A stretch of DNA of 64,000 nucleotides from the sequence record OK272482.1; one strand, given 5' to 3'. The translations under genes and the position numbers were made by a program. This stretch comes from Escherichia phage JLBYU08. Below, piece after piece: positions 3,661-60,162 of the stretch. Numbering within the stretch: the first letter of the stretch is position 1; each line of letters starts with the position of its first letter. Under the pieces are notes generated by a model that saw nothing but the letters and a program-made list of their open reading frames with translations, did no database searches and was not told where the DNA came from.

Positions 3661-3684
3661 AACTATTTATACAGATATGATAAG

Positions 3685-3901
3685 CCATGCCATTCGTTTG
3701 CATGTTAATAATTTATGACATAATATAAAAGCAGGGCAACTATTAGCAGATCTATAGTTGCCTTGCTTGTCATGTCATGATTAACTAAATACAAGGCAAC
3801 TATGATCTGATTAATAGTTTGCAGACAAACTATCACGGGGGTGATGGTTACTGCTTTTATATTATGTCGCGACTCCGTCGCGCCATGCCATTCGTTTGCA
3901 T
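3685..3901. repeat. palindromic element: 19-bp direct repeats flanking an 18-bp inverted repeat pair and inner hairpins
   Basis: CCATGCCATTCGTTTGCAT at 3685-3703 and 3883-3901; GACATAATATAAAAGCAG at 3717-3734 inverted at 3851-3868; inner GGCAACTAT/ATAGTTGCC hairpin around a BglII-like AGATCT centre. Confidence 0.6.
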
Positions 3902-4516
3902 AGTTGCCTTATTGTTACAGATAAAATAATTGTATTGTTAATTATTTCTTATCTTTCTCTTAGTCATCTAATGATTCCAGTTAGTATAGTAATGTACAGT
4001 AAACATTAGACGACTAAAGATTTATATGCTTATAATAACTTACAGTGACAATTTCGGACTGTTTACGAAAAATGTTGACACCTGAGCCGATTTATGTTAT
4101 GCAGTTTACACGAATAATTATTTTATGCAGGTATTGACTATTCCGTTATTCCATGGTTGGAATAAATACTTAGCAGTCTATAGAATGGTGACGCTACGTG
4201 AATTCTGGAATTTAGTGGCTATAGTTATACTCGATTTTTCACGTAGAACACGCTTTTGTTAGTGTGTAAGTGTATGACTTATAAAGATTTTTAGTTGTTG
4301 ACAAGATACTGAAGATATGCATCAGGTTAAATTTTGTGCAATAGCGGCATTACGTGCAATTTTGGGAGAGAAAACGGGCAAAAATGGCCTTGCTACCACA
4401 CAATGAAAAATTATGCAATAGTTATTTTCCATGTATATTTGTACAGTGTGTGGGATTAATGGCTAGTCAATTATTCCACTTGCCAGGTAGGGCCGTTTAT
4501 GGTAGGAGAAGAGCAG

Positions 4517-8132: not shown

Positions 8133-8417
8133 TTATTTATTGATAGCGTGCAGCGGGAAAGGTACGCCAGGTTGATAGATAACTTTTACAACCTCATCAG
8201 AGCAAAAGAAATTACAAAATTCACCCTGATAAGCCTCATCCTCTTTTAATTCTTCATCAACATACTGGAAAAAGTAGTCAATGCTTGGATAATCCTGACC
8301 GGGATTATATTCAACCATGGTTAATAACAATTCTTGATCATTCCGTATGATATGCATACCAGCTTTTAAGTATTTGGCTTCCATTTCTACTACATCGCCA
8401 ACGGTAACAATAGCCAT
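8133..8417 (-). CDS. hypothetical protein, 94 aa, acidic
   Basis: ORF with TAGGAG SD. Confidence 0.55.
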   Translation of the reverse strand: MAIVTVGDVVEMEAKYLKAGMHIIRNDQELLLTMVEYNPGQDYPSIDYFFQYVDEELKEDEAYQGEFCNFFCSDEVVKVIYQPGVPFPLHAINK

Positions 8418-8622
8418 GGTTTTAACTCCTATCTATCCGGTTAATGATTGGAGGCCTCACCGCCCCCGACACCCTTTATTATCCATATTGTAGGACTTGA
8501 TGCAAGTACTTCTTTAAAAATTTTTTAAGCGCCTTGGGGGCCGCTGTAACGCCAAAATAATAAAGGCTATGCAACCGCATAGCCTTTATGTGATTATATC
8601 GCTGCAGGCCCTGCCAGGGACC

Positions 8623-9332: not shown

Positions 9333-9378
9333 AATTTACTTTATTGATGGCCCTGGAGTCAAGGCCATCTAAAAATAA
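9333..9378 (-). promoter_or_regulatory. repeated promoter-hairpin element copy 1 (TTGACT in hairpin loop, then TAAATT)
   Basis: One of three near-identical 44-bp elements; 7-bp stem GATGGCC/GGCCATC; lies upstream of gene 8991..9290. Confidence 0.5.
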
Positions 9379-9381
9379 ATT

Positions 9382-12693: not shown

Positions 12694-12767
12694 GTACTTT
12701 CTCCTTTCATGGTGTTAATAAATTATCTTTATAGATGGCCCTGCAACCAGGACCACCGAAAAAATAA

Positions 12768-13013
12768 CTATTTCACAATGCCTACAAAACAGATCCCGCC
12801 TTCACCTATATAAGCAATATCGGTCACTTTATAACTTGTCAAGATCTGCTTATTTAGTTCATTAATAAAATCGGTCATTGCGTTGGTGTAGTTGTCTTCC
12901 GTGTCTAAGGCATAATCCCAGGTGTACACCTTTTTACGTCCGAAGCCTTTTACCATGATACGGGCGCTTTTGGTGTTGGTAGGGGCATAATATTTGGTGA
13001 TTAGTGCTGCCAT
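12768..13013 (-). CDS. hypothetical protein, 81 aa
   Basis: ORF with TAGGAG SD; promoter-hairpin element upstream. Confidence 0.6.
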   Translation of the reverse strand: MAALITKYYAPTNTKSARIMVKGFGRKKVYTWDYALDTEDNYTNAMTDFINELNKQILTSYKVTDIAYIGEGGICFVGIVK

Positions 13014-13054
13014 GGTTTTAACTCCTATGCATTAGTTCAGTGTTAACAGTATAA

Positions 13055-13100
13055 AGTTTACTTTATTGATGGCCCTGGTGTCAAGGCCATCTAAAAATAA
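13055..13100 (-). promoter_or_regulatory. repeated promoter-hairpin element copy 2 (TTGACA in loop, then TAAACT)
   Basis: Near-identical to the copies at 9333 and 13676. Confidence 0.5.
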
Positions 13101-13102
13101 GC

Positions 13103-13444
13103 TTACTCGTTTTCTTCCAGCTCCGCAAGCTCTTCTTTTGCTTCTTCTAACTCTGTCTGTAATTCCTGGTATTCTTCATCGTCCTCAATATCCAGGCTGT
13201 CGATGTAGTCGCTAAATCCGCAGCGGTAAGCGATAGGATCTAGCTCCTTGAGGATACGCGACGGAAGAAAAGAAATGTTTCCGATCATAATTTCGCCGTA
13301 GATCTCGTCTAACCATTCATCATAGTTTTCGTCGTACTTGTCCTCGTCGATTTCAAAGTTATCGATCTTATTCTCAAGGTCTGCGATCTGTTTTTTCAGT
13401 TCAGCGATCTGCATAGCTTTTTCTGAGGCGGTCATAGTAGTCAT
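13103..13444 (-). CDS. acidic coiled-coil protein, 113 aa
   Basis: ORF with AAAGGAGAAAAA SD; consensus promoter upstream. Confidence 0.6.
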   Translation of the reverse strand: MTTMTASEKAMQIAELKKQIADLENKIDNFEIDEDKYDENYDEWLDEIYGEIMIGNISFLPSRILKELDPIAYRCGFSDYIDSLDIEDDEEYQELQTELEEAKEELAELEENE

Positions 13445-13675: not shown

Positions 13676-13721
13676 AGTTTACTTTATTGATGGCCCTGGT
13701 GTCAAGGCCATCTAAAAATAA
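13676..13721 (-). promoter_or_regulatory. repeated promoter-hairpin element copy 3
   Basis: Near-identical 44-bp element upstream of small gene 13524..13643. Confidence 0.5.
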
Positions 13722-13723
13722 AC

Positions 13724-14119
13724 TCAATAAGTTTTTAGTACTTTCCCGTCCAATCTGTCAAGCTGGATCTCGATAGCTGCAGAAAACCTATTGTAAACCA
13801 CATCGCCCAGGGAGTCCAGCCAATCTATGACGTTATATACCTGCTCTTTATTCTTGCAAGTCCGGATCCGTTTCATTACGTAAGACGGATCAATATTAGC
13901 GCTCTCGTTGTTGTGGTCCTGCGCCTGGCCTGCTGCGCTAGTTATAGATTTTACAACCACCTGAAAGGGCTTTAAGGTGCCTTTTGCGTTCATCTCACGC
14001 GCTTTTGCGGCGCGGTTGTTATATGTTACACAACGGCGGCAAATGTTGACCAAATGCATATCAATAATTTTTTCATCGTTTGCCAGTTCGTTCATGATGC
14101 GGCGTACGTTCTTATTCAT
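13724..14119 (-). CDS. hypothetical protein, 131 aa
   Basis: ORF with AAAGGAAA SD. Confidence 0.6.
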   Translation of the reverse strand: MNKNVRRIMNELANDEKIIDMHLVNICRRCVTYNNRAAKAREMNAKGTLKPFQVVVKSITSAAGQAQDHNNESANIDPSYVMKRIRTCKNKEQVYNVIDWLDSLGDVVYNRFSAAIEIQLDRLDGKVLKTY

Positions 14120-38503: not shown

Positions 38504-39688
38504 TTAAGCTTTAGCCAAAATGGCGCTAAACTCTTCACCAAACTCTTTTACAATCTTCATCAGGTTTGGGTATGCTTTGATCAGCTGAGCAACAATCTTG
38601 TCACGCCCTTTACCGATAAGCAAGGCATTTCCTAAGGCATTAGGTTTCATCATCGCCATAAAGACTGAGAATACAAAATCTCGGTTCTCGTCCTTGAAGT
38701 TTTCCCAAAGGAAATCGAGGAAGTTTGCCACGCAGCTGACAAGATCTTCGTCTGAGATACTTGCATTTTCCATCATATTACGAATAGCGATACAACCTTC
38801 AGATCCAAGAATCCACAAAATGTCTGGCTGCTTAGGACCTACGTATTCTTTGCAGCCACCTGCCATAATCCGACCGATTTCCGGTAAATTGCGTTTCTTG
38901 GTGTGGTATGTCCAGATCTCTACCGCTGCAGTGTGACCAATAGCACCTTGCAGAAGAACACGGGCCATAGCGTCAGAAATAATACCGCTGTCAAAATCGT
39001 GCAAGATGTCAGATGCAGCAACCCAAGATCGTGGTGTGGCAAAAGATGGACAATTAATCTCAGCCATAGCCTCATAATTATCAATAGCTGATGGAACTCT
39101 TTTCAGATACCCAATTACAGAGGAGTGAACCCCGTTGAGGAATGCGTAGTCCTCAATAAACACCTCTGCATTGCTTGTAACCTCTACAATGATAAAACGG
39201 TTAGCCAGAGGGGCTTCGAGCGCCGAAAGAACCGCACCATCTGTAGAACGGTTACCCGCAGCCACAAAAACAGAACCCTTAGGGAATGCATAGGTGCCGC
39301 ACTTGTGGTCAAGCATAATTTGCATTGCAACCTTTTGCAGGTAGTTATCTGCATGAGTGAGCTCATCCAGAAAGATAATTCCGCTCCAGTCAGGATCCGC
39401 AGGCCAAAATTCTGGAATTGCAAACACTGTACGTGTAGTTCCATCCGCTTCTACAGGGATAGGTAGCCCAGATAAGTCGGCAGGATCTTTATCTGACAGT
39501 CGCACGTCAACAAGGTTGTCATCTCGCTCACCGAACATATTATCAGCGATCTGCTTCATCACCTGGCTTTTACCCACACCCATTGGTCCCAAAATTAGGA
39601 CAGATCGGCTATGACGTTGGGCAAACTGAATAATAGCTGGCAACTCACGGACAGTGATTTGACCACTTTCGAATACGTTTCTTGACAT
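38504..39688 (-). CDS. MoxR-like AAA+ ATPase, 394 aa
   Basis: Walker A GPMGVGKS, Walker B IFLDEL, MoxR/AAA_5-like spacing; TAGAGGA SD. Confidence 0.8.
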   Translation of the reverse strand: MSRNVFESGQITVRELPAIIQFAQRHSRSVLILGPMGVGKSQVMKQIADNMFGERDDNLVDVRLSDKDPADLSGLPIPVEADGTTRTVFAIPEFWPADPDWSGIIFLDELTHADNYLQKVAMQIMLDHKCGTYAFPKGSVFVAAGNRSTDGAVLSALEAPLANRFIIVEVTSNAEVFIEDYAFLNGVHSSVIGYLKRVPSAIDNYEAMAEINCPSFATPRSWVAASDILHDFDSGIISDAMARVLLQGAIGHTAAVEIWTYHTKKRNLPEIGRIMAGGCKEYVGPKQPDILWILGSEGCIAIRNMMENASISDEDLVSCVANFLDFLWENFKDENRDFVFSVFMAMMKPNALGNALLIGKGRDKIVAQLIKAYPNLMKIVKEFGEEFSAILAKA

Positions 39689-39957: not shown

Positions 39958-40001
39958 CTCTACTACTCCTTAAGCAGCATCCTTGCCGCCATTCCTGCCC
40001 A

Positions 40002-40382
40002 CTAAAATGCAGTCCGAATCCAGACAAGGTTCTTATCTGCCCAATCATAGAGGCAAGTCATTGCACTATTGAATTGCTCACACGGAGGATAATCTTCTTC
40101 CATCTGGCGCATAGCAGAGCCTTGTGGGTAAAGCTCCCGTGCTGCAAACCACGCGTCGTAGTCATCAACGGTGTCGAAGTAGTATACAACATCCTCTAAC
40201 TCAGGATCGAACTTTGAACTATCAGGATCCAGTTGTTCAGGGAACTTGGAGCGTAACTTGCCAGCCACAATACTTGCCAACTCGCTAACATGCTTATTGT
40301 CCCACTCCACTAGCTTCCCGTCTTCAGTGATGCGTCCTAACCACTGATCATGAAGGTCAACTGTTGTCTTCCACTGAGCCAT
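40002..40382 (-). CDS. hypothetical protein, 126 aa, acidic
   Basis: ORF with GAGGTGGA SD. Confidence 0.6.
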   Translation of the reverse strand: MAQWKTTVDLHDQWLGRITEDGKLVEWDNKHVSELASIVAGKLRSKFPEQLDPDSSKFDPELEDVVYYFDTVDDYDAWFAARELYPQGSAMRQMEEDYPPCEQFNSAMTCLYDWADKNLVWIRTAF

Positions 40383-40384
40383 TA

Positions 40385-40642
40385 TCAGTCCACCTCTTCT
40401 TCTCGTTGTAGTTCAAGATACCCGTAGGTCTGGACATCTTGAAGGGTGTGGAACTCCCCCTCTGCCGCTAAGGCACGAACAACTTGGCACAAAACCTTAT
40501 GAGGAACTTCATCCAAACCTAGATTCAGTGCAGGAAACACCTTATCTAAGTCAACAAAATAAACGAACTGTAGCTCACCAGCTTCAAAAGGTGTATCTTC
40601 AATAAACATCTTCTCGGCATTAGTCAAGATCTGCACTTTCAT
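40385..40642 (-). CDS. hypothetical protein, 85 aa
   Basis: ORF with GAAGAGGGGG SD; TAATGA coupling. Confidence 0.6.
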   Translation of the reverse strand: MKVQILTNAEKMFIEDTPFEAGELQFVYFVDLDKVFPALNLGLDEVPHKVLCQVVRALAAEGEFHTLQDVQTYGYLELQREEEVD

Positions 40643-40998
40643 TATTCTACCCCCTCTTCTTTTTCTTCGGCATTAGTTTCATGGCTACCCCACTCGGGAG
40701 TTTCCACCTCGATAGTAAACTCACGCACTACACGGTAATTGCCCATGAAGCGCTCTACTTCGTCAAGGCTTATGGAGAGGCCATTGGCAACCAGGTCTGC
40801 AGCACCCTCTTCTACCAGGTAGTCCAGATTGGCTTCCAGAGCCTCAGGTTCAAACCCTGTCAATGCAATCAGATAACCTTCCCCTTCATCAGGGAGGACA
40901 ATACAGCCCAATTGATTTTCTTTAAAAAGGCAGTGACCATCATTATTGATTGGGTGTTCATTGCAGTAAATAGCTGCACGATAAGTAACTTTAGACAT
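40642..40998 (-). CDS. hypothetical acidic protein, about 118 aa, starting MSKVTYRA (start lies in the 29-bp inverted repeat)
   Basis: AAGGAG SD 9 nt before ATG; first 8 codons identical at nucleotide level to an internal restart of the rightward gene at 42842. Confidence 0.55.
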   Translation of the reverse strand: MSKVTYRAAIYCNEHPINNDGHCLFKENQLGCIVLPDEGEGYLIALTGFEPEALEANLDYLVEEGAADLVANGLSISLDEVERFMGNYRVVREFTIEVETPEWGSHETNAEEKEEGVE

Positions 40999-41003
40999 CG
41001 GTA
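40975..41003. repeat. 29-bp perfect inverted repeat, left copy (TACCGATGTCTAAAGTTACTTATCGTGCA read on minus strand)
   Basis: Exact reverse complement of 42837-42865. Confidence 0.85.
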
Positions 41004-41011
41004 AGGTCTCC

Positions 41012-41290
41012 TTAGGCAATTGTCATTTTACATTCTTGAAATTTTAACACAAGACGGTGATTGTGTCTAGTGTCTAAAAAGATTTTTTCAACCATCAGGC
41101 ACACGGTATAACCGTCCATCTTGTTGACAACAAAATCTCCAGGATGAGGGAGGATGTCTCCCGGATTGGGGAAACATAGTCCACTCAGAAAGGCATCGTC
41201 AGTGGTGGACTTAATAGATTTCCACACACTGTCTGCCTGAACATGTTCACCGACGTAATATACATTACCACATGCCTTCATCATAGTCAA
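41012..41290 (-). CDS. hypothetical protein, 92 aa
   Basis: ORF with GAGGG SD; inside the inverted-repeat-bounded segment. Confidence 0.5.
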   Translation of the reverse strand: MTMMKACGNVYYVGEHVQADSVWKSIKSTTDDAFLSGLCFPNPGDILPHPGDFVVNKMDGYTVCLMVEKIFLDTRHNHRLVLKFQECKMTIA

Positions 41291-42186
41291 ACCCTCGCAT
41301 AAATTAAACTTGTATCAGTATACTTCTTTAATGGGTAAATATCCTGTCCATAGATGCAATCATTAAACACCTCATCTACCCAAAGGCTACACTTATATCC
41401 CATCATTTCTAAAACACCCATCTCTTCTTCTGTAAACTTATCACCGCTCTTGCAAGATGTCAATACCTCATTCTGAACTCTTGCTACCTCGAAGCGGTTA
41501 TTGGCAATATCGCTATTGGCGATCAAATACTCACCTAGAGGGTGTGCGGCATTAAAGATGCACAGTGGACGGCTGACGTAATAGTCTCCGGGTGTATAAA
41601 AATTGTTGAGGTCTTTCACTAGAACATTCTTATCAGTCACTTCATTTATAACATCATGCATATCGCACATCTTTATATGTTTGAGGATTCCATCCCCCAT
41701 CACAAAATAAAAACTTGCTGAGACACTTTCGGCATAGATCTTACTAGATCCGTTGTAGTTGTATTTTACTCGGATGCTAACGGGGGTTTTTCCTGTCGCG
41801 TTAGCCATCATCCAAAGAAATGGCAGCTCATACTTCTCCTCTGAGGAAACAAAAGGTGAGGTAGCCAGAGATCGAAAACCTCCAGAGAAGTTGAAAGTTA
41901 CAGAACCGCTCCGGCGGTATGATACCGCGTATTCTACTTTTATATCGACGTACCCATTGGAATAGGTGTGTCCTTCATTATCTAAATATGTCCACTTATC
42001 AGACCCAGATACCAATCTACGCTCGATAACCTTCATCACTACAGGAATTAGTGGGTTGGTACAAACCGCTTTTGAAGTAGCTTTATCATCTAAAGCCTCG
42101 TAAATTGCAGAAAGGATGTCCCCAGCTGAAAGATTGGTTGTTATGTCCTGTTTCCACCGCGTACTAAAACTGTTAAGATTTGCCAT
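41287..42186 (-). CDS. hypothetical protein, 299 aa
   Basis: ORF with TAGGAGCA SD; inside the inverted-repeat-bounded segment. Confidence 0.6.
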   Translation of the reverse strand: MANLNSFSTRWKQDITTNLSAGDILSAIYEALDDKATSKAVCTNPLIPVVMKVIERRLVSGSDKWTYLDNEGHTYSNGYVDIKVEYAVSYRRSGSVTFNFSGGFRSLATSPFVSSEEKYELPFLWMMANATGKTPVSIRVKYNYNGSSKIYAESVSASFYFVMGDGILKHIKMCDMHDVINEVTDKNVLVKDLNNFYTPGDYYVSRPLCIFNAAHPLGEYLIANSDIANNRFEVARVQNEVLTSCKSGDKFTEEEMGVLEMMGYKCSLWVDEVFNDCIYGQDIYPLKKYTDTSLIYARV

Positions 42187-42265
42187 AAGTAAGTGCTCCT
42201 ATGTTAGTTTTCTTTCGAATGGGTGCACTATATTGTGGAGTTAGAGTAAAGTCAACACGTTTTTG

Positions 42266-43306
42266 ATGTTGACATCTGTTGAGACAATTGATACGATTTC
42301 TTCACTTACAGAGCACGAGAGACGACTCATGAATCTTGAAAAATATTATACACCAGAAGAGTTAGAGCGCTTGCTCAAAAAATATAGACGCAAACAGAAT
42401 AACGCACGGAAACGAGATATAGAGTTCGACCTGTCATGGGAAGAATACCTCCTATTTGGTAAAAAACTTTTAGGAGATGGAGTATGCGACTATACCCTTA
42501 TACCTTTTGACATGCACACAGATGAAAACGGGCTGGGAAATCCTTTCTACCCATCTCTGGAGCGGATAGATGATGAAGGTCCTTATGCGGTTGATAACTG
42601 TTGTGTGGTGGGATTGAGATGCAACTCTCTAAAGGACTGTCTGGTAGATAAAAAGACTGCAGTCTTGATTAAAGACGAAACTGATCGAAAAATTGTCCAG
42701 CAGATGATGCTCCACCTGAGCGAAGAGCGTATGGAGAAATTGAAAGGTGATTATACTTTTGAAGATTTCATCTTACAATATGGAACGGAAGAGGATAAAC
42801 TAGCACTCTTTGACGAAGAAGAGGAGGAAGATATGCTACCGATGTCTAAAGTTACTTATCGTGCACCCAAGAAGCACATTTCCGACATTGTAAACGAGCC
42901 TATCACAGAAGAGATTGAAGAAATGACGCAACAGGTGCATGAAGAGGAAAAAGAGACTCAGGAGGTCGAAGAGGAGCTTACAGAAGAGGTTCCTGCACTA
43001 CCTGATGATGTTGAGATTGCCAAAGCTTACACTTTCTATTGTCAAACGTTCTACGATGTAGGTATGAAAGTTGATCTGTCGTTCAGCCAATTTAAGAGTT
43101 CGTATATTCGCAAATGCTGTGCTTTAACTGGTGAACGTCTTGGAGCTGGACTTAAACCTCTGTTGGTGACCGACTGGAATAAAGGTTTCACTAAAGGAAA
43201 CTTTATGGTAGTATCTCCAATTATGGAGAAAGCTATGACAGATCTTATGAAGACCACCCGCATGACAATGACCGAGTTGGCAGGTATTTTCAAACACGTT
43301 AAATAA
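42266..43306 (+). CDS. ORF with two tandem copies of a Cys/Asp-rich domain, 346 aa; possibly two in-frame genes, second starting at MSKVTYRA (42842)
   Basis: Both halves carry C-x-(Y/A)-T...(R/T)(I/D)D...G(Y/F)..GN(c/f).V motif; GAGGAGG SD before internal ATGs; no clear SD at annotated start. Confidence 0.5.
   Translation: MLTSVETIDTISSLTEHERRLMNLEKYYTPEELERLLKKYRRKQNNARKRDIEFDLSWEEYLLFGKKLLGDGVCDYTLIPFDMHTDENGLGNPFYPSLERIDDEGPYAVDNCCVVGLRCNSLKDCLVDKKTAVLIKDETDRKIVQQMMLHLSEERMEKLKGDYTFEDFILQYGTEEDKLALFDEEEEEDMLPMSKVTYRAPKKHISDIVNEPITEEIEEMTQQVHEEEKETQEVEEELTEEVPALPDDVEIAKAYTFYCQTFYDVGMKVDLSFSQFKSSYIRKCCALTGERLGAGLKPLLVTDWNKGFTKGNFMVVSPIMEKAMTDLMKTTRMTMTELAGIFKHVK
42837..42865. repeat. 29-bp perfect inverted repeat, right copy
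   Basis: TACCGATGTCTAAAGTTACTTATCGTGCA on plus strand. Confidence 0.85.
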
Positions 43307-43310
43307 TAAC

Positions 43311-43335
43311 AGGGGCCAATGGCCCCTTCTGGAGT
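43311..43335 (+). terminator. possible weak terminator hairpin
   Basis: GGGGCC-AAT-GGCCCC followed by TTCTGGAGTTTT; short loop and interrupted T-run. Confidence 0.35.
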
Positions 43336-43339
43336 TTTA

Positions 43340-44800
43340 ATGGATAGCAGAAGTTCAGAAATCATTGCCTCGCAGAAAGATGATGCCCTGAGAATGTTGC
43401 AGGCTGCACGTATGTATCTCCTTGAAAAGCTGCCGTTCTATGGCACACTACTGTCAGGGTTGCAGTTCGTAGAAAACCACACATGGTGCTCCACCATGGC
43501 AACCGACCATAAACGCATCTATTACAGTCCTGAGTTCATTATGGGATTGGCTGATGAACGCAAGGCTATTCTTAAGGCTTCTCTAACTGACGAGCAGTTT
43601 GAGATGGCTGAAGTTTTCTATTCCCCAAAATCTGTGAAAGAGGTGGCCTTCCTTCTGTCACATGAGGTGGGGCATATTATCTGTGATCACCTAGTCCGTG
43701 GTAAAAGCTTTGAGCCGGAACTGTTCAATATTGCTTGTGATCACGTTATCAACACAGGCCTTGTGGTTGACTTTAGCAAACCTCCTTGTGTTTTCTTCCC
43801 GAAGGGGAAAAGCACTACGTTCGTGAAAGGTAAGCCTTTTGGCTTCTTAGCCAGCTGCTACTGCGACATGAAGTTTCATGGATGGATTGCTGAGAACGTT
43901 TATGCAGTTCTTGATAAGCAAAGAGATCAGAATAACGGTAAAAGTAAGAACGGTAAAGGTGAGAACTCTCAAAGTGATAAGCGACAAACCGATGATCACA
44001 TGAGTGGGAACGGTGGCACCAGTGATAATCTTGGAAAGGCTATGGGGTATGATCAGCCACAACCTGTAATCAGCCAATCTGATAAAGATCAGGCCATGCA
44101 GGACTCTGGTGATATGCTGGAGGCAGCAATGCAAGCGTCCGGAGGCCGTTGCCCTGAGGCGGTGCGTGAGTTTGTCAAGAACAGAGGTAAACCTGTAATC
44201 AACTATATAGACATCATTAAGCAACGCATGTTGTCTAAAAGAAAGGCCGAACTGACCTACAGAAAACCTGGTCGCCGATCTGGGTCTTTGACCAGCACAA
44301 TGCGAAAAGTTGGGGCTATAAACAAGAACCAGCACGTTATTGTTCCTGGTCGTAATCCGGAAAACACTATAGATATTGTGGTGGCTTTAGACGTTTCTGG
44401 CTCGATCTCTCAAAGAACTTTAAAGAAAATGTTCAATGAAATCACCGGATTGTGCAATCTGTATAAAGAGTTTAAGGTTACAATGTTCTGTTGGTCAACT
44501 GAGGTTGGAGAGGTTAAAGTATACACTCGCGGCAACATAGACGAGATGATCAACTATGAGGTCCACTCAACATGGGGCACAACAGCTGCTTGCGTGTTCG
44601 AGCATCTGGATGCCAACATACCTAATGCAAAAGATGTCATCGTCCTGACCGACCTATACTTTGAGCATAACTTTGAACAAAAGGTTGTTGACAACAAGTG
44701 GAAAAAGTACGATACTCTATGGGTCCTCACTGAGGGGTATAATAAAAATTATATCCCGAGCTTTGGGAAAACTGTGGAATTAATCGAGTACGCTAAGTAA
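43340..44800 (+). CDS. putative metallopeptidase (HExxH) plus von Willebrand A domain protein, DUF2201-like, about 486 aa
   Basis: HEVGHIICDH zinc-binding motif in N-terminal half; MIDAS-like VALDVSGSIS in C-terminal half; GGAG SD before internal ATG. Confidence 0.7.
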   Translation: MDSRSSEIIASQKDDALRMLQAARMYLLEKLPFYGTLLSGLQFVENHTWCSTMATDHKRIYYSPEFIMGLADERKAILKASLTDEQFEMAEVFYSPKSVKEVAFLLSHEVGHIICDHLVRGKSFEPELFNIACDHVINTGLVVDFSKPPCVFFPKGKSTTFVKGKPFGFLASCYCDMKFHGWIAENVYAVLDKQRDQNNGKSKNGKGENSQSDKRQTDDHMSGNGGTSDNLGKAMGYDQPQPVISQSDKDQAMQDSGDMLEAAMQASGGRCPEAVREFVKNRGKPVINYIDIIKQRMLSKRKAELTYRKPGRRSGSLTSTMRKVGAINKNQHVIVPGRNPENTIDIVVALDVSGSISQRTLKKMFNEITGLCNLYKEFKVTMFCWSTEVGEVKVYTRGNIDEMINYEVHSTWGTTAACVFEHLDANIPNAKDVIVLTDLYFEHNFEQKVVDNKWKKYDTLWVLTEGYNKNYIPSFGKTVELIEYAK

Positions 44801-44815
44801 GAGAGGAGGTTATTT

Positions 44816-45079
44816 ATGGCAACAGAGTTAAAATTTGCATCAAACCGTAAAACTAAGAAGTATCTGTCCTCAGTAGCTCCAGGCACTGTGGTGATGTTTG
44901 TTGATGAACTTGGGGATGTGAATACAGCACTTGTTGTAAAATCACATCCTGCAAACATATATGTTGGGGTATTTGACCTGTTCAGAAAGGTGTTTGTAGA
45001 ACTACCTCACAGTTTGGTTGTTACAGAAATGGATGCCTGCATAGAAATTCTTGGCGAAGTTATGGTGGAGGAACAATAA
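44816..45079 (+). CDS. small protein, 87 aa; paralogue 1 of a four-gene tandem array
   Basis: Shared pattern MAT..kF.s..k.K.....GtVV...D.......mvvk...fdl...L...kVtE.d..I.iLGE; GAGGAGG SD. Confidence 0.6.
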   Translation: MATELKFASNRKTKKYLSSVAPGTVVMFVDELGDVNTALVVKSHPANIYVGVFDLFRKVFVELPHSLVVTEMDACIEILGEVMVEEQ

Positions 45080-45342
45080 TGGCTACCAGCATTGTATTCA
45101 ATTCTAAGGTGAAGAACAAAAAGCGTGCAGACAGCTTTCCGTGTGGGACCGTGGTAAGTTGCGACGGAGACGGCATTCAAAACATAGTTATGATTGTCAA
45201 AACAGGAGAACATTGTGTGTGGGGGTTCGATTTAGAAAATAATGAGTTGTACGATCTGCCACCAAACATGAAAGTTACAGAGCTTGACACCAAAATTACC
45301 ATCCTTGGAGAGACAAGCTATTCAAAAGAAGGAGGAGAATAA
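45079..45342 (+). CDS. small protein, 87 aa; paralogue 2
   Basis: TAATG coupling; same length and motif pattern. Confidence 0.6.
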   Translation: MATSIVFNSKVKNKKRADSFPCGTVVSCDGDGIQNIVMIVKTGEHCVWGFDLENNELYDLPPNMKVTELDTKITILGETSYSKEGGE

Positions 45343-45605
45343 TGACCACAAAAATCACTATCGCAGAACCGAAAGCTAACACTCAACCTATCGAAAAGTT
45401 TAAGTGCGGTGAGGTGGTAACATTCACACCAGATAATGAAGATGCTAAGATTTTCGCAATGGTCACAGCTGAGTGGATGTGTGACAACACCACACAGGTT
45501 CTGCGTTTTGACACCTATCTTACCGATGAAATCAGGAACGACAAGATTGTGACTGGTGTGGATACTGAGATTGTTTTCTACAAGAGCTTTTTAGAGGGTT
45601 TCTGA
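45342..45605 (+). CDS. small protein, 87 aa; paralogue 3
   Basis: TAATG coupling; same length and motif pattern. Confidence 0.6.
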   Translation: MTTKITIAEPKANTQPIEKFKCGEVVTFTPDNEDAKIFAMVTAEWMCDNTTQVLRFDTYLTDEIRNDKIVTGVDTEIVFYKSFLEGF

Positions 45606-57063: not shown

Positions 57064-58110
57064 TTAAGCATAAGATATAGTGATCCATTGACCATTTACA
57101 AGTTTTTGGATAGCACCTGTCCAGTAATCACCTTGATAAGGGTGTTTATAAGCGTAGTTACCAGAGCACATCACATGTCCAGGGTAGACTCTTGACTCTC
57201 TGTAGGTGGTTTTGAAACGGTTTGCTATCCTTACATCATCAACCCCTCTGCTGGGCATAGGGATAGTAAGGTTACCACTACTGTCTGCGCCGTTACCATT
57301 TACCCTGCGGACCACGTTTCTTCCGCCAACTGTTGCATATTGACCCCTGACTGTTTCATCGTTACAATCAACTCTTCCACCTATTTGAGCGCTTCCGCAG
57401 GATTGTTGTCCGTTAACAGTGGCTCTTGGTATCGTGACCGCATTGGCATTTGCAGAGTAACTTTTTGCATCGTTGCATTCAAGATTTCCTTGGATAGCCA
57501 GTCTTGCACGGTTGGCAGTTATAGCATTGAGCTTCATAGCCGAAAACACAGGCTGCCCACCAGAAGGTTGAAATCTCCAACGGAACCCGTCTATTTGGTG
57601 AGAAGGATCATCAAGGTCTGTGCCGTCAGCACCACCGATGTTGTCCATAATCCAGAAGTCCATCGTCGTCTTGTCTGGAGTTATGGTGGTATATATTGCC
57701 GCATTGTCTGTTGACGCAGATGCAAACTCGATTCTTTGAATGCCTAAAGTTTGAGTCTGAGTCATTATGTCTCCAGACTTGTCAACATACAGATCGTCCA
57801 TTTCTTCAGGCGAGTATACATTGAGAACTTGACGTGCAGCAGCTTTGTCTGGAACGTCTGCTAGATTATTAGTGACCCTTAAGAATCTATTATCCCATCC
57901 TGGGACAACATCTTCTGTTAAATGCTTTAACCACGCAGAAAGCATGTGAAGTTCAAAGTTAACAACTTCACATGCCACTCTTTGTGTCATATCCCAACCT
58001 TTCAATCTCTCTTCTTTTTTTGGTTGAGACTTATTCAACTCTCCCGTATTTTCAAGCACAACATCCTGATTGGCCCAAATATCAAGAGGGATAACTGGTT
58101 TAGTCATCAC
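57064..58110 (-). CDS. tail fibre / receptor-binding protein, paralogue B, 348 aa
   Basis: N-terminus (PLDIWANQDVVLENT) and C-terminus (QKLVNGQWITISYA) shared with 59122..60162; central part divergent. Confidence 0.7.
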   Translation of the reverse strand: MMTKPVIPLDIWANQDVVLENTGELNKSQPKKEERLKGWDMTQRVACEVVNFELHMLSAWLKHLTEDVVPGWDNRFLRVTNNLADVPDKAAARQVLNVYSPEEMDDLYVDKSGDIMTQTQTLGIQRIEFASASTDNAAIYTTITPDKTTMDFWIMDNIGGADGTDLDDPSHQIDGFRWRFQPSGGQPVFSAMKLNAITANRARLAIQGNLECNDAKSYSANANAVTIPRATVNGQQSCGSAQIGGRVDCNDETVRGQYATVGGRNVVRRVNGNGADSSGNLTIPMPSRGVDDVRIANRFKTTYRESRVYPGHVMCSGNYAYKHPYQGDYWTGAIQKLVNGQWITISYA

Positions 58111-59121: not shown

Positions 59122-60162
59122 CTATGCATAATTAACAGTGATCCATTGACCATTTACAAGTTTTTGTAAAGGTCCTGCCCAGTAGGTTGAACCACGCATC
59201 TCTTTTTTGTCACCGAAACGCCAGCCTGTGACAACGTATCCGTTGCGGATTGGAGATTCAGAAACGCCGTCCACAAGTCTTGCACCGATTCTGATGTCTT
59301 GCACACCTGTCTGCGGGATAGTGATCGTTACATCACCGTTACCGTTAGCCGTCACTCCATTCACGGAGCGCACCACATTTCTGTTACCGACAACACAGTG
59401 CTGGCTTCTTACAACCATACTGTCACAACTTGCACCACCATTAACATATACTGACCCAGCCGTCAACTGACTGGCCACATTACAGTTGGTGAATGTTGCT
59501 GTATTGCTGATAGTAAGGTTATTGCACCTCATGTTATCGACAACTTCAACATTGCCTACCACTTTCAACAGCGCACGATTAGCCGTGATCGCGTTAAGGT
59601 ACATCAAAGTGAACTCTGGATTAATATCCGGCTGAGTTGGCTGGAATCTCCAACGAAACGCATCTACTGTAGATGTACCACCATCATCAAACGACCCGGT
59701 ATTATCACTTAACCCAAAGTCGAGGGTTGTCTTATCTGGGCCAATAGTTGTCTCTATCCAAGCCTTATCTGTCTCGGCAGCTTTAAAGTTGATACGTTGC
59801 AACCCCAAGGGGCCTGTCATTGTATCACCTGTAACTTTTACATACCTGGCGTCTGCCTCTTCCTTAGTGATAATCCCAAGGTTTCTACGGGCAACAGGAA
59901 TGTTCAAAAGATCGCTCAAGTTATTATCACGTACCAGATAACGGCCTTCTTGAGCTGGGATCTGCTCGTCAGCAATGTATTTTGCCCAAGTCCCGAGCAT
60001 ATTGAAAATATAGTTAAGTTCTTCACATGAGGGCTTTTGACCAAGATCCCAACCTTTTCTCCACAAATCATCAATCGGGCGTAGCCTGTTCTGTCTGTGG
60101 GTGTTAGGCAGAACCTGATCCTCCTCTGCCCAAATCTCTAATGGAAAACTAGGTTTTGACAT
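59122..60162 (-). CDS. tail fibre / receptor-binding protein, paralogue A, 346 aa
   Basis: Shared termini with 57064..58110 (ends QKLVNGQWITVNYA). Confidence 0.7.
   Translation of the reverse strand: MSKPSFPLEIWAEEDQVLPNTHRQNRLRPIDDLWRKGWDLGQKPSCEELNYIFNMLGTWAKYIADEQIPAQEGRYLVRDNNLSDLLNIPVARRNLGIITKEEADARYVKVTGDTMTGPLGLQRINFKAAETDKAWIETTIGPDKTTLDFGLSDNTGSFDDGGTSTVDAFRWRFQPTQPDINPEFTLMYLNAITANRALLKVVGNVEVVDNMRCNNLTISNTATFTNCNVASQLTAGSVYVNGGASCDSMVVRSQHCVVGNRNVVRSVNGVTANGNGDVTITIPQTGVQDIRIGARLVDGVSESPIRNGYVVTGWRFGDKKEMRGSTYWAGPLQKLVNGQWITVNYA

What the first reader, a model, noticed from the sequence alone, without database searches (positions are those of the whole stretch)
40975..42865. 29-bp perfect inverted repeat gives two divergent genes an identical start (MSKVTYRA) and brackets a 1.8-kb segment
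The same 29 nt (TACCGATGTCTAAAGTTACTTATCGTGCA) occur on the minus strand at 40975-41003 and on the plus strand at 42837-42865. Each copy carries an ATG and the first eight codons of a gene; the downstream proteins are unrelated. Identity includes third codon positions and ends abruptly, which suggests a recent recombination junction, a site for inversion of the enclosed segment (which would swap the upstream domain between the two gene bodies), or a conserved N-terminal leader comparable to capsid-targeting sequences on phage internal proteins. No site-specific recombinase was recognised in the window.
Basis: partly seen in the sequence, partly recalled or inferred. Interest (0 to 1): 0.8.

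Follow-up and report, generated by a model that had tools for sequence, protein, structure and literature searches.

The report
Copy-paste mutation scar in a coliphage
The 29-base perfect inverted repeat is real, but it is best explained as a one-off copying accident in one lineage of rV5-like coliphages that pasted the start of one gene into the flexible linker of a neighbouring gene, not as an inversion switch or a shared protein leader.

Summary
The repeat is confirmed: 40975-41003 (-) and 42837-42865 (+), 29/29 identical, the longest inverted repeat in the window, with no such match in 100 shuffles. The window is an rV5-like coliphage (Vequintavirus).

Only the left arm is a gene start (gp008 homologue, MSKVTYRA...). 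The right arm is codons 170-179 inside ORF11, a 325-codon 'Srd-like' protein that stays continuous across four other genera of the subfamily.

The left arm is present in all 116 relatives. The right arm occurs in 27 of 117 GenBank records and one gut metagenome contig. About 90 relatives read ACCGATG-[25 nt]-ATCGTGCAG at that site, sharing only 6-10 nt of microhomology with the gp008 start.

So 25 nt of a hypervariable acidic linker were replaced, in frame, by 13 nt copied from the gp008 start 1.8 kb away on the other strand. This was a template switch or short-patch ectopic conversion that made an imperfect inverted repeat perfect.

All 115 full-length relatives and the metagenome contig show the parental orientation. 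No recombinase is annotated. The arms do not co-vary in phage ECP32. Neither protein's peptides occur in the published rV5 virion mass-spectrometry data.

Verdict: a real feature with an ordinary mutational origin and probably no function. Low interest, apart from the unusually long spacing for a templated mutation.

The parts
40975..41003 (-). Left arm (donor). It covers 5 nt of RBS-to-ATG spacer plus the first 8 codons (MSKVTYRA) of the gp008 homologue.
   Evidence: Exact match. The coding part (ATG + 21 nt) is identical in 15 of 16 sampled relatives, with one V-to-A change in bov11CS3; the spacer part varies, e.g. ACCAATG, ATCAATG. 0 differences from rV5.
42837..42865 (+). Right arm (recipient), internal to ORF11 at codons L170-A179 (..EEDM-LPMSKVTYRA-PKKH..).
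   Evidence: Exact match. Present in 27 of 117 records. 7 differences from rV5 within the 29 nt.
42845..42857 (+). The 13-nt core of the patch (TCTAAAGTTACTT). It replaces the ancestral 25 nt CAGGATTTTAAAAAYTTCATGGCTR, a net loss of 12 nt (4 codons) in frame.
   Evidence: Alignment of 16 relatives.
40642..40998 (-). gp008 homologue, 118 aa, function unknown (phrog_12908), found only in the genus Vequintavirus.
41008..41013 (-). Ribosome-binding site AAGGAG of gp008. It lies outside the repeat, so it was not copied.
   Evidence: Sequence; Murica RBS annotation.
41012..42186 (-). gp009 (41012-41284) and gp010 (41287-42186, annotated 'putative alpha-1,3-fucosyltransferase', no Pfam hit). These are the leftward genes enclosed by the repeat.
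42227..42297 (.). Divergent sigma-70-type promoters: 42255-42227 (-) and 42269-42297 (+, equal to rV5 P11).
   Evidence: Same positions as the promoters annotated in phage Gotham and in rV5.
42329..43306 (+). ORF11, 325 aa: an N-terminal Srd-like/HNH-like domain, an acidic hypervariable linker and a conserved C-terminal domain.
   Evidence: PHROG hits phrog_3118, phrog_4592 and phrog_1400. Full-length homologues across the subfamily.
42780..42995 (+). Hypervariable acidic linker of ORF11, with three allele classes in the genus and length variation between genera. The patch sits here.
   Evidence: Identity to the window falls to 69-80% here in the rV5-type (B) relatives and 75-88% in the FV3-type (C) relatives, against mostly 84-100% in the flanking windows. 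Protein alignment.

Best explanation
The repeat is the scar of one historical templated mutation in one lineage of rV5-like phages. The ancestral ORF11 linker read ..ACCGATG-[25 nt]-ATCGTGCAG... By chance, it shared a 7-nt and a 9-10-nt microhomology with the start of gp008, which lies 1.8 kb away in the opposite orientation. During DNA synthesis (replication or recombinational repair), a growing strand left its template at the first microhomology. It copied 13 nt from the gp008 start on the other strand, then returned at the second microhomology. This turned an imperfect inverted repeat into a perfect one of 29 nt or more. It replaced eight residues of a disordered, fast-evolving linker (QDFKNFMA) with four (SKVT), and the flanking D/N changed to Y. 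The change kept the reading frame and was tolerated. It was then inherited and moved onto other backbones by ordinary homologous recombination. Shown: the polarity of the change, its extent, its restriction to one allele class, the absence of inversion in assemblies, and the internal position in ORF11. Inferred: the enzymatic route (replicative template switch versus short-patch gene conversion) and selective neutrality.
For: The repeat is real and not due to chance. The left arm's coding part is identical in 15 of 16 sampled relatives, and gp008 aligns from residue 1 in all 116 records. The right arm occurs only in allele A: 26 records at 100% and 1 at 97.9% of 117. The longest shared substring between the two sites is 29 nt in A-allele phages, 24 nt in ECP32 and 6-10 nt in 11 B/C-allele phages. 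In the comparison with rV5, the left copy has 0 differences and the right copy has 7; it is the only long exact repeat in 64 kb with this asymmetry. Alleles B and C differ from each other at many sites, while A-allele copies are nearly identical to one another, so A is young. The outgroup Mydo has DMKEHMAK where B/C have DFKNFMAD/N. Imperfect 7+10-nt inverted microhomology pairs are common by chance: 331 in 64 kb of rV5 against about 200 in shuffles. No alternative donor exists in 5,426 E. coli genomes or in non-Vequintavirus phages. Arm homogenisation of imperfect inverted repeats by template switching, giving multinucleotide coding changes, is documented (PMC8604942; PMC7202029 and PMC7954356).
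Against: The arms are 1,833 nt apart, whereas systematic screens of this mutation class used spacers of 70 bp or less and found arms of 7-16 bp. One base just outside each end of the repeat (C at 42836, C at 42866) matches neither the donor nor the B/C alleles. The event was therefore not perfectly clean, the true ancestor is unsampled, or later substitutions occurred. No intermediate allele was found. The outgroup support for polarity rests on a short, weakly alignable linker motif. Neutrality is assumed, not tested.
Confidence: 0.85

Rival explanations
1. The repeat is a working inversion site. Recombination between the arms flips 41004-42836, swapping promoters and fusing the ORF11 N-terminal domain to gp008 while releasing the ORF11 C-terminal domain as MSKVTYRA-...
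For: Both arms are in frame, so both recombinant products would be open reading frames (and inference). 29 bp is enough for rare homologous exchange.
Against: No inverted orientation appears in 115 full-length GenBank relatives or in the metagenome contig. About 90 relatives keep the same segment and orientation without the right arm. No recombinase is annotated in the homologous 64 kb of rV5 or mentioned in the genome paper. The arms do not co-vary in ECP32. Assemblies show only the majority orientation, so rare inversion is not excluded.
Confidence: 0.03
2. MSKVTYRA is a functional peptide or initiation module shared by two proteins. It would be either a targeting leader or an imported translation start that lets the ORF11 C-terminal domain be made separately.
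For: The copied tract includes an ATG and its immediate context. A purine-rich GAGGAGG lies upstream at 42821-42827.
Against: The gp008 RBS was not copied. GGAGG lies 14 nt from the ATG at 42842, and acidic codons make such strings anyway. The Met at this position already exists in alleles B and C. The motif is absent from ORF11 in about 90 relatives and in other genera. No gp8 or gp11 peptide occurs in the rV5 virion MS data.
Confidence: 0.04
3. The shared 29 nt is a selected cis-element. Both divergent early mRNAs carry the same RNA sequence, so one RNA-binding protein or small RNA could co-regulate gp008 and ORF11.
For: Both arms are transcribed from the divergent promoters at 42227-42297, so both mRNAs contain the identical 29 nt (and inference). 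The allele is found on at least three different backbones: window, inoa and ECP32.
Against: Most of the genus lacks it. In ECP32 the identity has decayed to 24 nt with no compensating change. A-allele copies are so similar overall that perfect conservation carries no signal of selection. No candidate regulator is known.
Confidence: 0.04
4. Reverse polarity: allele A is ancestral, and the B/C alleles arose by insertion and divergence; or the gp008 start was copied from ORF11.
For: No rooted whole-genome phylogeny was built here.
Against: The gp008 start is present in all relatives, including all B/C phages, so it cannot derive from allele A. Alleles B and C are more diverse and more widespread than A. 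The outgroup linker motif resembles B/C. Identity at synonymous sites implies a recent copy.
Confidence: 0.03

Closest known systems
[quoted passage not shown]
   Same: The ancestral state is an imperfect inverted repeat and the derived state is a perfect, longer one. One arm is unchanged and the other carries a clustered multinucleotide change. There is microhomology at both switch points. The outcome is several adjacent amino-acid replacements in a coding region (PMC8604942, PMC7202029, PMC7954356).
   Different: The arm spacing is 1,833 nt rather than tens of bases. The final arm length of 29 nt exceeds the 7-16 nt reported in the yeast screen. The event also carries a 12-nt length change. 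Hairpin formation within one nascent strand is implausible at this distance, so a cross-fork or recombination-associated switch has to be assumed.
Short-patch ectopic gene conversion / template switching during recombinational repair
   Same: A short tract is copied from a non-allelic donor in the same genome without crossover, and the donor is unchanged. Strand dissociation and re-alignment during repair synthesis is documented (bioRxiv 10.1101/2023.08.09.552703, abstract seen).
   Different: The homology available before the event was only 7 + 10 nt, far below what normal homologous pairing uses. No break site or repair context can be shown.
Phage invertible segments (Mu G / P1 C / Gin-Cin-Hin type)
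   Same: Short inverted repeats flank a segment of 1-3 kb, and the repeats lie within coding sequence so that inversion would exchange protein parts (my own knowledge of these systems).
   Different: There is no recombinase and no second orientation in any relative. The repeat is absent from most relatives. The genes concerned are early genes, not tail-fibre genes.

Membership tests
Site-specific invertible DNA segment (Gin/Hin/Cin type or shufflon) | Inverted repeats flank the segment | tested here: met
   29-nt perfect arms with 1,833 nt between them.
Site-specific invertible DNA segment (Gin/Hin/Cin type or shufflon) | A serine or tyrosine recombinase is encoded next to or within the element | tested here: not met
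   The five genes in and around the segment give no recombinase hit in Pfam or PHROGs. No recombinase, integrase or invertase is annotated in the homologous 64 kb of rV5 or mentioned in the genome paper. Not every window ORF was scanned individually.
Site-specific invertible DNA segment (Gin/Hin/Cin type or shufflon) | Both orientations are found among genomes or populations | tested here: not met
   115 of 118 GenBank matches are single collinear pieces; the other 3 are short or partial records. Metagenome contig L021 has parental junctions. Within-population heterogeneity is not testable here.
Site-specific invertible DNA segment (Gin/Hin/Cin type or shufflon) | The repeats are conserved wherever the segment is conserved | tested here: not met
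   The right arm is absent from about 90 of 117 relatives that carry the same segment.
Template-switch arm homogenisation of an imperfect inverted repeat | The derived allele extends an ancestral imperfect inverted repeat into a perfect one | tested here: met
   6-10 nt shared in B/C alleles against 29 nt in allele A.
Template-switch arm homogenisation of an imperfect inverted repeat | One arm (donor) is unchanged; the other carries a clustered multinucleotide change identical to the donor's complement | tested here: met
   Left copy has 0 differences from rV5 and right copy has 7. Alignments.
Template-switch arm homogenisation of an imperfect inverted repeat | Microhomology at both switch points | tested here: met
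   ACCGATG and ATCGTGCAG(C) are present at both sites in rV5-type genomes. Such pairs are common by chance.
Template-switch arm homogenisation of an imperfect inverted repeat | Short range, with arms within tens of bases as in published screens | tested here: not met
   The spacer is 1,833 nt, against 70 bp or less in PMC8604942.
Template-switch arm homogenisation of an imperfect inverted repeat | It arises during DNA synthesis, by polymerase or strand switching | not testable with these tools
   A historical event. Only the sequence outcome is visible.
N-terminal targeting or leader peptide shared by phage proteins | The motif sits at the N-terminus of each protein that carries it | tested here: not met
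   In ORF11 it is residues 172-179 of 325.
N-terminal targeting or leader peptide shared by phage proteins | The motif is conserved among orthologues | tested here: not met
   It is absent from ORF11 in about 90 of 117 relatives and in four other genera.
N-terminal targeting or leader peptide shared by phage proteins | The carrier proteins are present in virions | tested here: inconclusive
   No gp8 or gp11 peptides occur in the rV5 virion MS file, which lists 19 proteins. However, rV5 carries allele B, and low-abundance proteins could be missed.

The most novel reading that the evidence does not exclude
In A-allele phages only, the 29-bp repeat might support rare homologous inversion of the promoter-bearing 1.8-kb segment. 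That would create a subpopulation expressing an ORF11N-gp008 fusion and a free ORF11 C-terminal domain. Alternatively, the shared 29 nt might couple the regulation of the two divergent early transcripts. Either would make this an invertible or co-regulated module caught at its birth, created by a templated mutation.
Probability: 0.05. Interest if true: 0.6.

Novelty: new member of a known kind. Interest (0 to 1): 0.2.

Why it matters
It mainly matters as a caution. A striking perfect inverted repeat that spans two gene 'starts' can be a neutral mutational scar, and a few dozen related genomes are enough to show it. It is also a clean natural example of a templated multinucleotide mutation acting over about 1.8 kb and rewriting a protein linker in one step. 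That distance is far beyond the range at which such events are usually searched for, so screens limited to short spacers may miss part of this mutation class in fast-replicating phage genomes.

Tried and rejected
1. Two scans of IMG/VR for parental and recombinant junctions spanning the whole repeat found nothing, not even the parental junctions. They are therefore uninformative.
2. A metagenome scan found one contig, in the parental orientation.
3. I suspected that the two halves of ORF11 are an internal duplication. BLASTP does not support this (E = 2.4), so it is not claimed.
4. I asked whether templated patches recur in this phage group. Among all exact repeats of 15 nt or more in 64 kb of the window and of rV5, only this one combines length with a one-sided mutation cluster. 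It looks like a one-off. Two weaker asymmetric cases in rV5 lie in the repeated intergenic cassette region.
5. A host-genome donor was excluded.
6. Pfam gave no hits for gp008, gp009, gp010 or ORF11.
7. Structure prediction of ORF11 was not run. The linker's variability already shows that it tolerates change, and the homologues fetched from GenBank could not be submitted to that tool.
8. I considered whether an FV3-type donor (CCT-ACC...) explains the extra C at 42836. It is possible, but no sampled genome has exactly CCTACCGATG.
Full report
**Observation**

The sequence TACCGATGTCTAAAGTTACTTATCGTGCA occurs exactly twice in the window, at 40975-41003 on the minus strand and at 42837-42865 on the plus strand. 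There is no further match at up to three mismatches, and none of 100 dinucleotide-preserving shuffles gave two matches. It is the longest inverted repeat in the 64-kb window, and 1,833 nt lie between the arms. The repeat is therefore real and not due to chance.

**Where the arms lie**

The window is an rV5-like coliphage of the genus Vequintavirus. It is 99.7% identical over this region to phages LL12, Gotham, pangalan and Murica.

The left arm covers the last 5 nt before the ATG and the first eight codons (MSKVTYRA) of the homologue of rV5 gp008 (40642-40998, minus strand, 118 aa, function unknown). The ribosome-binding site AAGGAG (41013-41008) lies outside the repeat.

The right arm is not a gene start. 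It lies at codons 170-179 of ORF11 (42329-43306, 325 aa), and no stop codon lies upstream of it. All annotators of 15 related genomes call ORF11 as one gene. ORF11 aligns end to end, in a single piece and at 37-40% identity, with homologues in Seunavirus, Avunavirus, Mydovirus and Erwinia phages.

ORF11 matches PHROG families labelled HNH endonuclease, Srd anti-sigma factor and decoy of host sigma-70. The rV5 genome paper calls it a probable Srd homologue (PMC3606486).

Between the arms lie gp009, gp010, a pair of divergent sigma-70-type promoters (42255-42227 minus; 42269-42297 plus) and the N-terminal half of ORF11.

**Comparison with relatives**

I aligned the region from 16 relatives spanning 91-99.7% identity.

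- **Left arm.** It is conserved throughout. The ATG and the next 21 nt are identical in 15 of 16 relatives, and gp008 aligns from residue 1 in all 116 records that have it.
- **Right arm.** It exists only in one allele class of the ORF11 linker.
  - Allele A reads ..EEDMLPMSKVTYRAPKKH... It is found in the window, Murica, Gotham, inoa, ECP32 and others: 26 records at 100% identity over 141 nt and one at 97.9%, out of 117.
  - Allele B reads ..EEDMSPMQDFKNFMADRAANKH.. (rV5 and about 80 others).
  - Allele C reads ..MQDFKNFMANRGANKH.. (FV3-like phages).
- **The nucleotide change.** Alleles B and C read ACCGATG-CAGGATTTTAAAAAYTTCATGGCTR-ATCGTGCAG, whereas allele A reads ACCGATG-TCTAAAGTTACTT-ATCGTGCA. 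So 25 nt were replaced by 13 nt identical to the gp008 start, a loss of four codons in frame.
- **Shared sequence.** The longest substring shared between the gp008 start and the ORF11 linker is 29 nt in A-allele genomes, 24 nt in ECP32 and only 6-10 nt in the eleven B/C genomes examined.

**Polarity**

The donor must be the gp008 start, because it is present in every relative, including those without the right arm.

Allele A is derived, for three reasons:
- Its copies are nearly identical to one another, while B and C are widespread and differ from each other at many sites.
- Its identity to the donor includes synonymous positions.
- The linker of the outgroup phage Mydo carries DMKEHMAK where B/C have DFKNFMAD/N. 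This last point is weak, because the linker is poorly alignable between genera.

In a 64-kb comparison with rV5, the left copy has 0 differences and the right copy has 7. No other long exact repeat in either genome shows such a one-sided cluster.

**Mechanism (inferred)**

The pattern is an imperfect inverted repeat made perfect, with the donor arm untouched, a clustered change in the other arm and microhomology at both ends. This is the signature of template switching during DNA synthesis, which homogenises inverted-repeat arms and causes several adjacent amino-acid changes at once (PMC8604942; PMC7202029 and PMC7954356). A short-patch ectopic conversion during recombinational repair would leave the same product, and I cannot tell the two apart.

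The ancestral microhomology needs no special explanation. Inverted pairs with a 10-mer and a nearby 7-mer in common number 331 in 64 kb of rV5, against about 200 in shuffles.

The unusual part is the distance. Published screens looked at spacers of 70 bp or less and found arms of 7-16 nt. Here the arms are 1,833 nt apart, which rules out a simple hairpin in one nascent strand. It suggests a switch across the replication fork or between molecules.

One base just outside each end of the repeat (42836 and 42866) matches neither the donor nor the B/C alleles. The linker as a whole is about 8-10% diverged between alleles A and C, so later substitutions or an unsampled ancestor are enough to explain this. 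An FV3-type donor reading CCTACC.. would explain the left one, but no sampled genome has exactly that sequence.

**Tests of the functional readings**

*Inversion*
- 115 of 118 GenBank matches are single collinear pieces, and the rest are short or partial records.
- The only metagenome contig carrying the arms has parental junctions.
- The same segment sits in the same orientation in the roughly 90 relatives that lack the right arm.
- No recombinase is annotated in the homologous 64 kb of rV5 or mentioned in the genome paper.
- In ECP32 the two arms have diverged independently (left ATCAATG, right ACCTATG), so nothing is keeping them identical.
- Assemblies report only the majority orientation, so rare inversion in a lysate is not excluded.

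*Shared leader peptide*
- The motif is internal in ORF11.
- It is absent from most orthologues.
- No gp8 or gp11 peptide occurs in the rV5 virion mass-spectrometry file, which lists 19 proteins.

*Imported start site*
- The gp008 ribosome-binding site was not copied.
- The Met at this position already exists in alleles B and C.

*Alternative donors*
- No match exists in 5,426 complete E. coli genomes, and there is none in phages outside the genus.

**Verdict**

The feature is real, but it is best read as a mutational scar. A single templated copying event pasted the first codons of gp008 into the variable linker of ORF11. It was tolerated there and now marks one allele class that has spread to several backbones by ordinary recombination (inoa and ECP32 are mosaics). 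It belongs to a known kind of mutation and is unusual only in its range. Interest is low. The residual novel possibility is that the new repeat now permits rare inversion or couples the regulation of the two early transcripts. That possibility is small, but it can be tested directly with long reads and an allele swap.

Noticed in passing
window 9333-9381, 12721-12769, 13055-13103, 13676-13724: A family of 46-49-nt direct repeats (AGTTTACTTTATTGATGGCCCTGG.GTCAAGGCCATCTAAAAATAA) containing a GC-rich hairpin. It lies in the early region of small ORFs and is also present in rV5. It is probably a repeated terminator or regulatory cassette.
   Followed up: no
window 8413-8432 and 13009-13028: A 20-nt perfect direct repeat, GCCATGGTTTTAACTCCTAT. 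On the minus strand this reads ATAGGAGTTAAAACCATGGC, a ribosome-binding site plus ATG shared by two small genes. Both copies carry the same single difference from rV5.
   Followed up: partly
window 3684-3917: Nested perfect repeats within 240 nt: a direct 20-nt pair (3684/3882), an inverted 18-nt pair (3717/3851) and a 19-nt inverted pair at 84%. They are conserved in rV5, and their nature was not examined.
   Followed up: no
window 57065-57126 and 59123-59184: A 62-nt direct repeat (84% identity, with a 30-nt perfect core) whose copies are 2,058 nt apart, conserved in rV5. It probably marks paralogous structural genes.
   Followed up: no
window 44816-45605 (+): Three consecutive 264-nt ORFs, each of 87 aa, followed by a 77-aa ORF. 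They look like a tandem array of small paralogues downstream of the metallopeptidase/VWA gene.
   Followed up: no
window 43319-44800 (+): ORF12 carries DUF2201_N (putative metallopeptidase) and DUF2201 (VWA-like) domains. A MoxR-type ATPase lies on the other side at 38504-39688. RefSeq labels ORF12 'HNH endonuclease', which the Pfam hits do not support.
   Followed up: partly
GenBank relatives: Sixteen near-identical genomes are deposited as 'Campylobacter phage' (UNVERIFIED, unannotated) although they are ordinary Vequintavirus coliphage genomes. The host label is probably wrong.
   Followed up: no
L014 (phage inoa) and L013 (phage ECP32), aligned to window 40000-44000: Clear mosaic boundaries. 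inoa is 99-100% identical to the window to the right of about 42700 but only 84-99% to the left, mostly 88-97%. ECP32 has a window-like block of about 500 nt around the ORF11 linker in an FV3-like backbone. This indicates frequent homologous exchange between co-infecting relatives.
   Followed up: partly
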